Positions 2,238 to 4,079 of a DNA stretch of 64,000 nt are shown here, piece by piece (positions within the stretch are counted from its first letter, which is position 1; the number at the start of each line of letters is the position of its first letter). Source of the DNA: Myxococcales bacterium (lineage in GTDB: Bacteria; Myxococcota_A; Polyangia; Haliangiales; Haliangiaceae); assembly GCA_016794525.1 (NCBI GenBank), contig JAEUJY010000077.1, positions 109,091 through 173,090 on the forward strand, in the 5' to 3' direction. Both the position numbers and the translations under genes were made by a program. The notes beneath the pieces were generated by a model, which had not been told where the DNA came from, did no database searches, and saw only the letters and a program-made list of their open reading frames with translations.

Positions 2238-2837
2238 ATGCAACCGCCTGGTCCGCCTGGTCCGCCCGCTGGTCCGCCGCCGCCGGGCTATCCGCCGCCG
2301 GGCTATCCGCCGCCGGGCTATCCGCCGCACGGCTACCCGCCGCCGCCGAAGCAGTCGCTCCTGTGGCTGTGGATCGTGCTCGGCGTGCTGGGTGCGGTGA
2401 TGGTGCTCGGCATCGTCGCCGCCGTCGCGATCCCGTCGTTCATGAAGTACCAGCAGAAGTCGAAGCGTAGCGAGGCGGAGCTCAACCTCAACGCCATCAA
2501 GAAGTACGCGGCGATGAACTACGCCGAGATGGCCGGCTTCCCACCGGGTTCGGCGGGGCCGACCCCGGCGACGTCGTGCTGCGCTGACCCGACGCGGCGG
2601 TGCCAGCCCGATCCGATCGCGTGGCAGGGCGAGCCGTGGGCCACGCTCGGCTTCGAGATGACCTCGCCGCACTTCTACCAGTACACGTACACCGGCACCG
2701 CCGACGGGCAGAGCTTCACGGCGACCGCGATCGGGGACCTCGACTGCGATGGCAACGAGGTCGTGTACACGCTGACCGGCCGCGTCGTCGGAGGCAGCCC
2801 GTCGTTCGAGCTCTCGCCGCCCACCGGCCGGGACTGA
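2238..2837 (+). CDS. Pilin-like membrane protein with N-terminal PPGY repeat region (paralog 1 of 3)
   Basis: N-terminal (PPGYP)n region, then a TM helix feeding into a type IV pilin-like helix motif ([21 protein letters not shown]). Conserved SCC..C and DLDCDG cysteines. No G/FTLIE prepilin cleavage site. Confidence 0.65.
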   Translation: [199 protein letters not shown]

Positions 2838-2870
2838 GCCGCGCCGCAGACGCGGTGTTACGCTCGGGCG

Positions 2871-3473
2871 ATGCAGCCACCTCCTCCAGGCGCGCCGCCG
2901 GGCGGCTATCCACCGCCGGGCTATCCACCGCCGGGCTATCCGCCGCCGGGCTATCCGCCGCCGCCGGGCTACGGGTATCCGCCGCCGAAGAAGTCGCTCC
3001 TGTGGCTGTGGATCTTGCTCGGCGTCGTCGGGGCCGGCCTGGTGATGATCGCGATCCTGGCCGCGGTCGCGGTGCCCAAGGCCGCCGAGTACGTCCAGAA
3101 GTCCAAGCGCATCGAGGCCGAGCTCAACCTCCGCGCGATCGGCAAGGCGGCCAAGGTCGCCTACGTCGAGAACGCGATGTTCCCGGTCGGTCACGCCGAC
3201 GCGACCCCGGCGGCGTCGTGCTGCGAGACCCCGAGCAAGAAGTGCCTCGAGTCGTCGGCGTGGGAACGCGAGCCGTGGCAGTCGCTCGACTTCGGGCTCT
3301 ACGACCCGCACTACTTCCGCTACACCTACGACAGCGACGGCAAGACGTTCACCGCCACGGCGATCGGCGACCTCGACTGCGACGGCGCCGAGGTCGTGTT
3401 CACGCTGCGCGGCTCGATCCAGGACGGCAACCCGATCCTGTCGGAGATCGAGCGGCCGGCCCGGCCGGACTGA
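2871..3473 (+). CDS. Pilin-like membrane protein with PPGY repeats (paralog 2)
   Basis: Same architecture as 2238..2837: [50 protein letters not shown] pilin-like helix, conserved Cys pattern. Confidence 0.65.
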   Translation: [200 protein letters not shown]

Positions 3474-3503
3474 CCCCGCGCGCGCGCGTGCTAGCGTGCA
3501 CGC

Positions 3504-4079
3504 GTGCAACCAGGGCCGCCACCGTCGCCGTCGGGGTATCCGCCACCAGGCTACTACCCGGGCTATCCGCCGCCCGGCGGTCCGCGGCGACCGTCGCGGC
3601 TGTGGCTGTGGATCACGCTCAGCGTCGTCGGCGGGCTGGCGGTGGTCGGCGTGCTGGCCGCGATCGCGATCCCGTCGTTCGTCAGCTACCAGCGCAAGGC
3701 CCGGGCCGTCGAGGCGGAGCTCGAGCTGCGTCGGATCGGCCAGGCGGCGGTGATGTACTTCGAGGAGCACGGTCGGTTCCCCGAGGCCGACGCCGGCCCG
3801 ACGCCAGCGACGCCGTGCTGCGCCGGCCCCGGCCACAAGTGCGCGCCGGTGATCGACGACTGGGCCGCCGAGCCGTGGCGGTCGCTCGGCGTCACGATGC
3901 TCGAGCCGCACCGCTACCAGTACACGTTCGCCCCGGGCGCCGATGGGCAGAGCTTCACGGCGACGGCGATCGGCGACCTCGACTGCGACGGCGACCCGGC
4001 GGTGTTCACGCTGACCGGCACCGCCGTCGGCGGCGCGGCCCGGCTCGACGAGGTGATCCGGCCGGCCCGGCTCGACTGA
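3504..4079 (+). CDS. Pilin-like membrane protein with Pro-rich N-terminus (paralog 3)
   Basis: [42 protein letters not shown], same Cys and DLDCDG pattern. Third tandem copy. Confidence 0.65.
   Translation: [191 protein letters not shown]

What the first reader, a model, noticed from the sequence alone, without database searches (positions are those of the whole stretch)
2238..4079. Three tandem paralogs of a pilin-like membrane protein carrying PPGY (PPxY-type) repeat N-termini instead of a prepilin leader
Each ~200-aa protein has the same layout. A cytoplasmic Pro-rich head made of (PPGYP)n comes first, then a TM helix running into a type IV pilin-like N-terminal helix motif ([19 protein letters not shown]). 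The periplasmic domain has four invariant Cys and a DLDCDG motif. The canonical G|FTLIE prepilin-peptidase site is missing, so these cannot be processed as pilins. PPGY fits the PPxY motif class. The tandem triplication, about 45-60% identity by eye, points to recent duplication and diversification.
Basis: seen in the sequence. Interest (0 to 1): 0.65.

Follow-up and report, generated by a model that had tools for sequence, protein, structure and literature searches.

The report
Pilin-derived proteins locked in the membrane
Three neighbouring genes of an uncultured myxobacterium encode proteins that descend from type IV pilus subunits but have lost the cleavage signal needed to build a pilus and gained a proline-rich cytoplasmic tail, so they most likely stay anchored in the inner membrane; this re-use of the pilin fold appears to be undescribed and its function is untested.

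Summary
Three co-directional ORFs (2238-2837, 2871-3473, 3504-4079) encode 199-, 200- and 191-aa paralogs that are 54-60 % identical. Each has a (PPGYP)n head, a 24-27-residue hydrophobic segment, a pilin-type alpha1 helix, four invariant Cys and DLDCDG.

The class III signal is degenerate: Gly-1 became K/R, Glu5 became Trp, and six residues are inserted. No N_methyl model matches and no upstream extension exists. The head is translated and constrained (dN/dS 0.08-0.23).

Prepilin relatives carry sigma54 promoters (26/62) and PilR-type neighbours. Pro-headed genes have none (0/11) and sit in a conserved EamA-UbiB-[1-3 copies]-S9 peptidase slot with no pilus genes in 64 kb.

Best reading: uncleavable N-in/C-out inner-membrane proteins displaying a pilin head in the periplasm. 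They are one of at least five anchor architectures built on this head.

"Recent duplication" is not supported. PPxY is only a literal match. Function is inferred. I rate this a new variant of a known kind, with moderate interest.

The parts
2238..2837 (+). W1 (MBL8623167.1, 'hypothetical protein'), 199 aa. Pro-rich head is residues 1-39 (nt 2238-2354). Hydrophobic anchor is residues 40-65 (nt 2355-2432). The continuing alpha1 helix runs to residue 98. The globular pilin head is residues 99-199. DLDCDG lies at nt 2736-2753.
2871..3473 (+). W2 (MBL8623168.1, annotated 'type II secretion system protein'), 200 aa. Head is residues 1-41 (nt 2871-2993). Anchor is residues 42-68 (nt 2994-3074). DLDCDG lies at nt 3369-3386. 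This is the most divergent alpha1N (AVPKAAEY) and the fastest-evolving copy.
3504..4079 (+). W3 (MBL8623169.1, 'hypothetical protein'), 191 aa, GTG start. Head is residues 1-32 (nt 3504-3599). Anchor is residues 33-56 (nt 3600-3671). DLDCDG lies at nt 3975-3992.
   Evidence: The GTG start and head are conserved in L001 copy 3, with head dN/dS 0.08.
2277..2345 (+). 15-nt tandem DNA repeat (CCGCCGCCGGGCTAT, 4.6 copies, 90 % matches) encoding the (PPGYP)n head of W1.
   Evidence: One-unit (5-codon) indels separate it from the L001 ortholog.
2904..2963 (+). 15-nt tandem DNA repeat (GGCTATCCGCCGCCG, 4.0 copies, 97 % matches) encoding the (PPGYP)n head of W2.
903..2225 (+). Conserved upstream neighbour: UbiB/ABC1 atypical kinase. 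Its stop codon lies 12 nt before the W1 start, so co-transcription is probable. Context, not shown to be functionally linked.
   Evidence: Pfam ABC1 1.8e-62. Synteny in L001-3, L006, L010, L090/91 and L093.
4177..6240 (+). Conserved downstream neighbour: a PD40/Tricorn_N beta-propeller plus S9 (prolyl-oligopeptidase family) peptidase, with an N-terminus that looks like a signal peptide by eye. It starts 97 nt after W3. Context, link unproven.
   Evidence: Pfam Peptidase_S9 1.1e-59 and PD40 8e-28. Adjacent to the family gene in every lineage examined, including the lipoprotein-type ortholog in L058.
21..878 (+). Conserved upstream neighbour: an EamA-family transporter that marks the left edge of the synteny block.

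Best explanation
W1, W2 and W3 are bitopic inner-membrane proteins (N-terminus in the cytoplasm, C-terminus in the periplasm). They evolved from PilA-type major type IVa pilins of the Kofleriaceae/Haliangiales lineage.

What changed. The class III signal peptide has degenerated in place. In the MAFFT register, Gly-1 became K38/K40/R29, Phe1 became Q/K/P, and Glu5 became Trp (the invariant WLW). Thr2-Leu3 survives as S-L in W1 and W2 (S-R in W3). Six residues were inserted before Ile15. The short basic leader was replaced by a 30-40-residue (PPGYP)n head that grows and shrinks by slippage of a 15-nt repeat.

Consequences. Without Gly-1 and Glu5 the protein cannot be cut or N-methylated by a prepilin peptidase, and it cannot dock into a filament. 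It therefore remains in the same topology a prepilin has before processing. From there it displays a Cys-rich pilin head with a DxDxDG-type loop in the periplasm and a proline-rich tail in the cytoplasm.

Proposed function. The genes have left the sigma54/PilR pilin regulon and sit in a conserved housekeeping slot (EamA-UbiB-[1-3 copies]-S9 peptidase), probably co-transcribed with ubiB. I propose they act as membrane-tethered pilin-head modules, that is, a periplasmic binding or recognition domain held at the inner membrane. The Pro-rich tail would serve as a docking sequence for a cytoplasmic proline-rich-sequence reader such as a bacterial GYF-type domain.

Shown versus inferred. Shown here: homology, fold, loss of the processing motifs, translation and constraint of the head, loss of the sigma54 promoter, conserved synteny, and the existence of alternative anchors on the same head. 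Inferred: topology, lack of cleavage, absence from pili, Ca2+ binding, and any partner of the head or the tail.
For: Homology.
- Bona fide prepilins are 45-50 % identical over 70-80 % of the length. Alignment is column-for-column from ILAAVAIP to the C-terminus, with the same four Cys and GDLDCDG.
- A family profile hits alpha1 of M. xanthus PilA 8tj2 at E=3.8e-15, then Geobacter PilA-N and Neisseria PilE.

Fold.
- AF2 gives pLDDT 89, one continuous helix (residues 42-98), a 4-5-stranded sheet, and a disordered head.

Loss of the class III signal.
- No PF07963 hit in Pfam at E<=10 and no prepilin-type N-terminal domain model among the NCBIfam hits at E<=10.
- No G-F-T-L-I-E motif. ORFs are already maximal.

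Head translated and constrained.
- Head dN/dS is 0.23, 0.10 and 0.08, with dS about 0.19-0.20, and all indels are whole codons.
- The MQP start is conserved in most of the 43 Pro-headed representatives.

Relaxed pilus-specific constraint.
- Pro22 is 100 % conserved in prepilins but 76 % in Pro-headed forms. The Cys and DxDCD residues stay at 97-100 % in all classes.

Regulon exit.
- The sigma54 -24/-12 motif precedes 26/62 prepilin genes, 0/11 Pro-headed genes and 0/35 genes of other architectures. Background is about 0.013-0.03 per kb, and there is none in the 64-kb window.
- PilR-type regulators lie beside the prepilin arrays.

No pilus machinery.
- None among the Pfam-scanned ORFs that cover most of the 64-kb window, and none within +-10 kb in sister MAGs.

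Conserved slot and alternative anchors.
- The EamA-UbiB-[1-3 copies]-S9 slot is conserved in at least six lineages.
- A lipoprotein-anchored positional ortholog lacking alpha1N occupies the slot in L058, in a MAG that also has canonical prepilins. This argues that a tethered head is the selected unit.

Precedents.
- A PilD- and pilus-independent role for a pilin in Legionella (PMC13170364).
- Binding of a proline-rich sequence by a GYF domain in Myxococcus (PMC11135422).
Against: - There is no experimental datum for any member of the family.
- Topology rests on homology to prepilins, on hydrophobic length (24-27 aa) and on flanking basic residues. No dedicated predictor was available.
- An AVA|IP sequence at the periplasmic end of the anchor could in principle be a signal peptidase I site.
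- The deep NJ tree is unresolved (bootstrap below 40 for class-level clades). The direction prepilin to Pro-head is therefore inferred from the surviving S-L-L.L.I remnant and from the universality of class III signals in pilins, not from a rooted phylogeny.
- The periplasmic heads evolve 6-20 times faster at non-synonymous sites than the flanking genes (dN/dS 0.30-0.62), and copy 2 is mosaic. That is unexpected for a protein sequestered at the inner membrane and is not explained by the model.
- No reader for the Pro-rich head was identified.
- The rest of this MAG could not be inspected for pilus machinery, canonical pilins or GYF proteins.
- The sigma54 motif was detected in only 42 % of prepilin genes with a strict pattern.
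Confidence: 0.6

Rival explanations
1. Pilus-machinery modulators. The proteins are uncleavable pilin mimics that still engage the type IV pilus apparatus through the retained alpha1 helix and head. They could act as a base anchor or stopper incorporated last. They could be a dominant-negative competitor at the PilC/PilNO platform. They could be a constitutive ligand for a PilS-type sensor that monitors membrane pilin pools.
For: The C-terminal half of alpha1N (ILAAVAIP22SF) and alpha1C remain very close to those of the canonical pilins. Tethered forms co-exist with canonical prepilins in at least one MAG. The heads evolve fast, in the N-conserved, C-variable pattern of pilins, as expected if they co-evolve with variable pilins.
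Against: No pilus genes lie near any of the loci. The sigma54/PilR regulation typical of the pilins is lost. Glu5, which from my own knowledge is needed for docking and for PilS sensing in Pseudomonas, is replaced by Trp. Pro22 is lost in 24 % of Pro-headed members. A lipoprotein ortholog without any alpha1N occupies the same locus, so alpha1N-mediated machinery contacts cannot be the conserved function.
Confidence: 0.15
2. Secreted soluble pilin heads. The long hydrophobic segment acts as a Sec signal peptide that signal peptidase I cleaves after A-V-A (W1 A64). This would release a soluble periplasmic alpha1C-plus-head domain equivalent to the Sec and lipoprotein members of the family.
For: A small-x-small motif (AVA in W1 and W2, AIA in W3) lies at the periplasmic end of the segment. 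Family members with ordinary Sec or lipoprotein signals begin their mature domain at about the same position, near DYMKKSK.
Against: The hydrophobic core of 24-27 residues is much longer than typical cleavable h-regions and is typical of signal anchors (general knowledge; lengths). The same AVAIP sequence is present and uncleaved in the genuine prepilins. A 30-40-residue n-region under purifying selection is not expected for a discarded signal peptide. AF2 models residues 42-98 as one uninterrupted helix.
Confidence: 0.12
3. They are ordinary pilins or pseudopilins after all. Either the starts are mis-called, or an unusual peptidase cleaves the leader, and the proteins are then assembled into a pilus or T2SS pseudopilus, as the NCBI label 'type II secretion system protein' for W2 implies.
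For: Weak sub-threshold matches to GspG (TIGR01710, 20-25 bits) and to PilA_Myxo over the helix. Pilin fold.
Against: There is no Gly at the -1 equivalent and no Glu5. No N_methyl hit appears even at E<=10. The ORFs cannot be extended upstream. The GspG score is far below its 88.85-bit cut-off. No T2SS or T4P genes were found in the 64-kb window. Internal-Met gene calls, such as the 145-aa version of W3 in L005, would delete half of the anchor, and they are contradicted by the purifying selection on the head.
Confidence: 0.05
4. Decaying pilin remnants with no function, in which the Pro-rich head is repeat-expansion junk.
For: dN/dS is elevated relative to the neighbours (0.30-0.62 against 0.05-0.15). 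The low-complexity repeats are slippage-prone.
Against: The ORFs are intact in every lineage sampled. The locus and gene order are conserved across lineages whose UbiB is only 82-86 % identical. The four Cys and DLDCD are invariant. Head dN/dS is 0.08-0.23. The MQP start and the S-L-L-W-L-W-I motif are highly conserved across the 21 aligned Pro-headed sequences.
Confidence: 0.03

Closest known systems
PilA-type major type IVa pilins: Kofleriaceae prepilins such as P0046/P0084, and the solved M. xanthus PilA (PDB 8tj2)
   Same: The alpha1 helix sequence from Ile15 on (ILAAVAIP22.F.[17 protein letters not shown]). The lollipop fold. Four conserved Cys and GDLDCDG in the Kofleriaceae relatives. 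A tendency to form tandem paralog arrays. The N-conserved, C-variable pattern of evolution.
   Different: No class III signal peptide: no Gly-1, Phe1 or Glu5. The hydrophobic segment is six residues longer. A 30-40-aa Pro-rich head replaces a roughly 10-aa basic leader. No sigma54 promoter or PilR neighbour. The genes occupy a non-pilus locus.
T2SS major pseudopilin GspG (the NCBI annotation given to W2)
   Same: General pilin-type N-terminal helix. A weak TIGR01710 match (20-25 bits).
Legionella pneumophila PilA2, whose role in iron acquisition is independent of piliation (PMC13170364)
   Same: A precedent that a pilin protein residing in the membrane can have a physiological role that needs neither PilD cleavage nor assembly into pili.
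   Different: PilA2 is still a canonical, cleavable major pilin that also forms pili. The window proteins have lost that option genetically.
Sibling architectures on the same pilin head: DUF4190-headed (P0086, P0119), zinc-ribbon-headed (P0243), lipoprotein/Sec-signal (P0132, L058 gene), and ~650-aa lipoprotein fusions (P0123)
   Same: The same alpha1C-plus-head module with Cys and DxDCD conserved at 97-100 %. All lack a sigma54 promoter (0/35).
   Different: The tether differs: a two-TM DUF4190 hairpin, a Zn-ribbon plus TM, a lipid anchor without alpha1N, or a large N-terminal domain.
Proline-rich sequence / GYF-domain pairing in the Myxococcus gliding machinery (GltJ-AglZ; PMC11135422)
   Same: A cytoplasmic proline-rich segment of a Myxococcota protein serves as a docking site. 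ZnR/GYF heads are typically fused by a TM segment to periplasmic receptor modules.
   Different: No binding is shown. The GltJ GYF domain did not bind a canonical eukaryotic GYF ligand peptide (CD2 tail), so a PPG-type motif match cannot be used to predict binding.
Sulfolobus bindosome sugar-binding proteins that carry class III signal peptides (PMC3047682)
   Same: They illustrate that the class III signal/alpha1N and the globular cargo are separable modules (abstract).
   Different: The direction is opposite: a non-pilin cargo gained a pilin signal. Here a pilin head lost the signal.

Membership tests
Type IV pilin (type 4 filament subunit) | N-terminal class III signal peptide: a short hydrophilic leader ending in Gly-1, cleaved by a prepilin peptidase (definition: PMC10191384) | tested here: not met
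   No PF07963 hit in Pfam at E<=10 and no prepilin-type N-terminal domain model among the NCBIfam hits at E<=10. No G-[FMLIVY]-[ST]-L-[ILVM]-E motif in the first 80 residues. The aligned -1 position is K38/K40/R29. No upstream ORF extension is possible.
Type IV pilin (type 4 filament subunit) | Glu5 in alpha1N, which forms a salt bridge with the N-terminal amine of the neighbouring subunit in the filament | tested here: not met
   The aligned position is Trp (W43/W45/W34). There is no acidic residue anywhere in the head or anchor.
Type IV pilin (type 4 filament subunit) | Long N-terminal alpha-helix (hydrophobic alpha1N continuing into amphipathic alpha1C), with Pro22 | tested here: met
   AF2 gives a single helix over residues 42-98 at pLDDT 86-98. 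P66 aligns with Pro22. A family profile matches alpha1 of 8tj2, 2m7g and 1ay2 at E 1e-10 to 4e-15.
Type IV pilin (type 4 filament subunit) | Lollipop fold: alpha1C packed on an antiparallel beta-sheet head | tested here: met
   [not shown]
Type IV pilin (type 4 filament subunit) | Disulfide-bonded C-terminal region | tested here: inconclusive
   Four invariant Cys (CC..C…C) are shared with the bona fide prepilin relatives.
Type IV pilin (type 4 filament subunit) | Sequence homology to demonstrable prepilins | tested here: met
   45-50 % identity and E about 1e-35 to 1e-42 to proteins that carry PF07963 and a QRG|FTLIE leader.
Type IV pilin (type 4 filament subunit) | Genomic or regulatory association with pilus genes (pil machinery, PilS/R, sigma54 promoter) | tested here: not met
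   No pilus genes among the Pfam-scanned ORFs that cover most of the 64-kb window, nor within +-10 kb in sister MAGs. The sigma54 motif precedes 0/11 Pro-headed genes against 26/62 prepilin genes. The rest of the MAG could not be inspected.
Type IV pilin (type 4 filament subunit) | Assembly into a filament | not testable with these tools
   Requires fractionation, microscopy or mass spectrometry.
T2SS major pseudopilin GspG (TIGR01710) | Score at or above the curated cut-off of the equivalog model | tested here: not met
   24.8, 20.1 and 25.4 bits against a cut-off of 88.85. Pfam T2SSG gives 12.8 bits against 21, for W3 only.
PPxY (WW-domain ligand) motif class | Presence of P-P-x-Y | tested here: met
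   3, 4 and 1 literal PP.Y matches, all of them PPGY. The same strings also fit PPG[YFWLM].
PPxY (WW-domain ligand) motif class | Existence of a WW-type (or other) reader that binds the motif | not tested
   No reader was searched for or found. The only relevant precedent retrieved is PRS-GYF binding in M. xanthus.
DUF4190 (PF13828) membrane proteins | Match to PF13828 | tested here: not met
   W1-3 give no hit. Sibling proteins P0061, P0086 and P0119 do carry it.
DxDxDG calcium-binding loop | D-x-D-x-D-G sequence in a loop between strands | tested here: met
   DLDCDG sits between strands 159-166 and 175-184 of the model. D167, D169 and D171 are 97-100 % conserved in all classes.
DxDxDG calcium-binding loop | Actual Ca2+ coordination | not testable with these tools
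   Motif-level inference from general knowledge of the DxDxDG class. No pilin precedent was found in the literature search.

The most novel reading that the evidence does not exclude
The pilin head of Kofleriaceae/Haliangiales may have been exapted into a modular family of envelope 'pilin-head receptors'. The Pro-headed members would be transmembrane adaptors. In this reading, a fast-evolving periplasmic pilin head recognises a variable partner such as the cell's own pilins or pilus state, a kin or foreign surface factor, or an invading phage or toxin component. The (PPGYP)n tail would relay or scaffold this at the cytoplasmic face through a proline-rich-sequence reader such as a bacterial GYF-type domain. 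The variable repeat number would tune avidity. That would be a new signalling or scaffolding use of a filament subunit, not a pilus component.
Probability: 0.15. Interest if true: 0.8.

Novelty: new variant of a known kind. Interest (0 to 1): 0.55.

Why it matters
Type IV pilins are defined by their class III signal peptide and are studied almost entirely as filament subunits. Here a whole lineage of pilin genes has lost that signal while remaining intact and constrained. These genes have left the pilin regulon and settled in a conserved housekeeping locus.

Sibling genes put the same head behind lipoprotein, DUF4190, zinc-ribbon and large-domain anchors. This shows that the pilin head can be selected as a stand-alone periplasmic module.

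Three things follow:
- It gives a natural, genetically locked example of a pilin that never leaves the membrane. That complements recent evidence for piliation-independent pilin functions.
- It flags a set of proteins that annotation pipelines currently call 'hypothetical', 'PulG' or 'type II secretion system protein', and often truncate at internal start codons.
- It offers a tractable test case for what bacterial proline-rich cytoplasmic heads do.

The biological role is still unknown and all members come from uncultured MAGs, so the impact is moderate for now.

Tried and rejected
- A homology search with the head plus TM segment alone (70 aa) returned nothing, not even self-matches, probably because the Pro-rich query is treated as low-complexity. 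Whether this head is a mobile module on other domains therefore could not be tested.
- The afdb50 fold library was unavailable.
- A neighbour-joining tree of the 140-residue core with 100 bootstraps did not resolve class-level relationships (support 37-38 % for the prepilin and DUF4190 clades; the Pro-headed group was not recovered as one clade). It does not establish monophyly or polarity. My first classification regex also mislabelled W3 as a prepilin because of an internal GVTMLE; this was corrected.
- My first sigma54 scan had an off-by-one error and found nothing. It was corrected after reading the L089 sequence by eye.
- Gene conversion between paralogs as the source of the divergent copy-2 head was not supported. 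The L001 copy-2 head is no closer to W1, W3 or P0006 (50-73 %) than to W2.
- The sigma70 promoter and terminator scan of 1-6400 was uninformative.
- A link between the Pro-rich heads and the downstream prolyl-oligopeptidase-family S9 peptidase was considered and set aside. From its N-terminal sequence the peptidase appears to carry a signal peptide (judged by eye, no predictor run), so it would be periplasmic, while the heads are predicted to be cytoplasmic. The lipoprotein ortholog without any Pro-rich head keeps the same neighbour.
- Seven literature searches found no description of pilin-fold proteins that lack the class III signal.

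
Full report
OBSERVATION.

The three ORFs exist exactly as described. They are 2238-2837 (199 aa), 2871-3473 (200 aa) and 3504-4079 (191 aa, GTG start), all on the + strand, with 33- and 30-nt spacers. W1 starts 12 nt after the stop of the upstream gene. GC3 is 0.91-0.94, like the neighbouring genes.

Pairwise identities are 60.0, 56.9 and 53.7 %.

Each protein has the same layout:
- A head of 39, 41 or 32 residues with 22, 22 or 14 prolines, no acidic residue, and 1-3 Lys/Arg at its end.
- An uninterrupted apolar stretch of 26, 27 or 24 residues.
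- The sequence AIPSF.[15 protein letters not shown]; W2 has [21 protein letters not shown].
- Four Cys and DLDCDG at conserved positions.

The heads are encoded by 15-nt tandem DNA repeats with 4.6 copies at 90 % and 4.0 copies at 97 %. The ORF listing reports the longest ORF from the preceding stop, and stop-to-stop translation shows nothing pilin-like upstream. A mis-called start is therefore excluded.

IS THE PILIN RESEMBLANCE REAL?

Curated models alone give only sub-threshold hints: ComP_DUS and T2SSG in Pfam, and PilA_Myxo (1e-8, helix only) and GspG (20-25 bits against a cut-off of 88.85) in NCBIfam.

Homology searches settle the question. Among 480 hits and 2521 cluster representatives there are many 165-175-aa proteins carrying PF07963. 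These have a textbook class III signal, …QRG|[41 protein letters not shown]…. They are 45-50 % identical to W1 and align without gaps from ILAAVAIP to the C-terminus, including CC…C…GDLDCDG…KP.R.D.

A 104-sequence profile matches the alpha1 helix of solved type IVa pilins: M. xanthus PilA 8tj2 at E=3.8e-15, then Geobacter PilA-N and gonococcal pilin.

WHAT HAS CHANGED RELATIVE TO A PILIN?

In the MAFFT register the prepilin positions map as follows:
- Gly-1 aligns with K38 (W1), K40 (W2) and R29 (W3).
- Phe1 aligns with Q, K and P.
- Thr2-Leu3-Ile4 aligns with S-L-L in W1 and W2, and S-R-L in W3.
- Glu5 aligns with the first Trp of the invariant W-L-W.
- L6.I8 are kept.
- Six residues (AVMVLG in W1) are inserted after the Gly14 equivalent.
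- From Ile15 onward the sequences coincide, and P66 corresponds to Pro22.

In any register there is no Gly-Phe junction and no acidic residue. By the standard definition, prepilins are defined by the class III signal that a prepilin peptidase cleaves on the cytoplasmic side. Glu5 pairs with the N-terminal amine of the neighbouring subunit in the filament (PMC10191384). Both features fail here. The helix and lollipop fold are retained.

The surviving S-L-L-x-L-x-I remnant suggests that the signal degenerated in situ rather than being swapped for a foreign TM segment. This is an inference.

IS THE PRO-RICH HEAD TRANSLATED?

Against the orthologous trio in sister MAG L001, the heads have dS of 0.19-0.20, which is no lower than in the rest of each gene. 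Their dN/dS is 0.23, 0.10 and 0.08, and all length differences are whole codons, typically one 5-codon repeat unit. The counts are small (Sd about 5, Nd 1-3.5 per head).

The MQP start, the basic residues and the S-L-L-W-L-W-I motif are invariant or nearly so across 21 Pro-headed sequences. They recur in most of the 43 representatives.

Several database gene calls start at internal Met codons inside the anchor, for example the 145-aa version of W3 in L005. Those calls would delete half of the hydrophobic segment and are contradicted by this conservation.

FAMILY CONTEXT.

The alpha1C-plus-head module occurs behind at least five N-terminal architectures:
- Prepilin leaders: 57 of 228 sequences classified.
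- Pro-rich heads: 43.
- DUF4190 two-TM heads: 12.
- ~410-700-aa proteins with a large N-terminal domain: 42. The ~650-aa subset aligned in A5 has a conserved N-terminal Cys consistent with a lipoprotein signal.
- Short lipoprotein or Sec forms with no hydrophobic alpha1N: 38.
- One zinc-ribbon head (P0243).

The four Cys and D-x-D-C-D are 97-100 % conserved in every class. Pro22 is 100 % conserved in prepilins, 76 % in Pro-headed forms, and absent from lipoprotein forms. The globular head is therefore the common selected unit, and pilus-specific features of alpha1N are relaxed once the leader is lost.

All genomic hits are uncultured Kofleriaceae, Haliangiales or 'Myxococcales' MAGs.

REGULATION AND LOCUS.

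Canonical prepilin members form tandem arrays of 2-5 genes. They lie beside a Response_reg-Sigma54_activat-HTH_8 (PilR-type) regulator in L089, L088 and L004.

A sigma54 -24/-12 motif (TGGCAY-N6-TGCW) lies 57-239 nt upstream of 26 of 62 distinct prepilin genes. It precedes none of 11 Pro-headed genes and none of 35 genes of other architectures. The background is about 0.013-0.03 per kb, and there is no match on either strand of the 64-kb window. This is the classic pilA arrangement, and the derived forms have left it.

The (PPGYP)n-LLWLWI subfamily is instead a resident of one conserved slot, EamA-UbiB-[1-3 copies]-S9 peptidase:
- Three copies in the window, L001/2/3/9 and L093.
- One copy in L006, L010 and L090/91. 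In L010 UbiB is down to 82 % identity.
- In L058 the same slot, without ubiB, holds a 159-aa lipoprotein-type member with no alpha1N. That MAG also carries the sigma54-driven prepilin array of L004/L019. Tethered and canonical forms therefore coexist.

No pilus or T2SS assembly gene occurs among the Pfam-scanned ORFs that cover most of the window.

A short-headed variant (P0057) lies in an unrelated context.

AGE OF THE TRIPLICATION.

Each paralog has its own orthologs at 87-97 % identity, against 54-60 % between paralogs. The W1 plus P0002 clade has 100 % bootstrap support, and the three-gene order recurs in other assemblies. The duplication happened after the split from single-copy lineages such as L006 but is not recent.

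RATE OF EVOLUTION (UNEXPLAINED).

Between the window and L001:
- The flanking genes are 97-99 % identical, with dS 0.07-0.13 and dN/dS 0.05-0.15.
- W1 and W3 are 88 % identical, with dN/dS 0.30 and 0.42.
- Copy 2 is 73 % identical over aligned codons, with dN/dS 0.62.

Copy 2 shows a gradient: head 97 %, TM 87 %, alpha1C 72 %, globular part 53-62 %. Its head is not derived from a sampled paralog.

This N-conserved, C-variable pattern is typical of surface-exposed pilins. It is not predicted for a protein sequestered at the inner membrane. It may indicate co-evolution with a variable partner, but I cannot say which.

MECHANISM.

Prepilins are inserted N-in/C-out before cleavage. A homolog that keeps the helix and the Cys-rich head, has basic residues on the N-side and a 24-27-residue apolar segment, but lacks the cleavage and docking residues, should stay in that state.

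I therefore read W1-3 as permanently inner-membrane-anchored pilin heads. The conserved DxDxDG-type loop suggests Ca2+ binding, which is a motif-level inference, and no pilin precedent was found.

The Pro-rich tail is constrained, so it presumably binds something. PPGY matches PPxY literally. The documented precedent in this phylum is binding of a proline-rich sequence by a bacterial GYF domain, for AglZ and GltJ at micromolar affinity. ZnR/GYF heads are typically fused to membrane receptor modules (PMC11135422). That is a lead, not a test.

A pilin with a PilD- and pilus-independent physiological role has just been reported in Legionella (PMC13170364). A membrane-resident function for a pilin protein is therefore plausible.

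Rivals are scored in the report sections: pilus-machinery modulator, signal peptidase I-released soluble head, ordinary pilin, and pseudogene.

NOVELTY AND SCORE.

No curated Pfam or NCBIfam model covers the head. The proteins are deposited as 'hypothetical' or 'type II secretion system protein'. Seven literature searches found no description of pilin-fold proteins lacking the class III signal.

The fold and ancestry are those of a known family, so this is a new variant of a known kind rather than something categorically new. Interest is moderate at 0.55. It is a clean, well-supported case of pilin exaptation with a broader modular family behind it, but it has no functional evidence and is known only from MAGs.

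Noticed in passing
[not shown]
   Followed up: partly
L058 9908-10387 (MAG ABC1.117, JAWKQV010000002.1): At the syntenic slot between EamA and the S9 peptidase lies a 159-aa lipoprotein-type family member (MSSAGKTMALGVLVVCGGC…). It has no alpha1N and no Pro-rich head. The same MAG carries a sigma54-driven canonical prepilin array (L004/L019). Positional orthologs therefore differ in how the head is tethered..
   Followed up: partly
L089 9930-9950 and 10696-10712; L004, L014, L017, L020, L051 and others: Canonical prepilin genes of this family are preceded by TGGCAY-N6-TGCW sigma54 promoters (26/62). They lie next to PilR-type regulators and often occur in tandem arrays of 2-5 paralogs. A second, weakly related prepilin (GFTLVEILVAVA…) is sometimes adjacent..
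   Followed up: yes
window 2871-3473 versus L001 10649-11257: Copy 2 is mosaic between two MAGs whose flanking genes are 97-99 % identical. The head is 97 % identical, the TM 87 %, alpha1C 72 % and the globular part 53-62 %, and dS is also raised in the globular part. Across the trio, dN is 6-20 times that of the neighbours. The cause is unknown..
   Followed up: partly
P0243 (198 aa); P0061, P0086, P0097, P0119; L026, L041: Other cytoplasmic heads occur on the same module: a CxxC…CxxC zinc-ribbon plus PPPP head (P0243), and DUF4190 two-TM heads, sometimes in tandem pairs (L026). These resemble the ZnR/GYF-type head plus membrane receptor architectures described for Myxococcus GltJ..
   Followed up: no
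L005 3159-3596; P0005, P0018, P0029, P0032, P0034, P0038, P0040, P0044: Many database gene calls for this family start at an internal Met inside the membrane anchor. An example is W3's twin, called as 145 aa instead of 191 aa from GTG. These are probably start-codon mis-annotations caused by the GTG start or the low-complexity head..
   Followed up: partly
window 13749-17144 (+): A 1131-aa surface-adhesin-like protein with seven Big_9/cadherin-like repeats, two DUF4215 domains, a C-type lectin domain and a lamin-tail domain. A LuxR-family regulator follows at 17177-18208..
   Followed up: no
window 36006-42175 (+): An FHA-sigma54 activator (784 aa) with a 4-nt overlap onto a 1272-aa Ser/Thr kinase-nSTAND1 NTPase-FGE-sulfatase fusion. 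An ADYC-domain protein follows at 42212-43672..
   Followed up: no
window 43928-52696 (-) and 52960-54831 (+): A 2922-aa FG-GAP/RHS-repeat protein (polymorphic-toxin-like) lies next to a protein with an eCIS_core domain and a peptidoglycan-binding domain. eCIS_core genes also appear near the DUF4190-type member in L008..
   Followed up: no
window 23003-23632 (+); 24721-26988 (-): A rhomboid intramembrane protease gene, and an adjacent GAF-PAS-GGDEF / EAL gene pair. The rhomboid is about 19 kb from the trio, and no link to its single-pass anchors was examined..
   Followed up: no
window ~6310-7100 (-): The ORF downstream of the S9 peptidase contains …IPDVPHHIYLRGNNRR…NHVHLIAVPP…, which is reminiscent of IS200/Y1 (REP-associated) tyrosine transposases. 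The gene at the equivalent position in L006 has a weak PF01797 Y1_Tnp hit..
   Followed up: no
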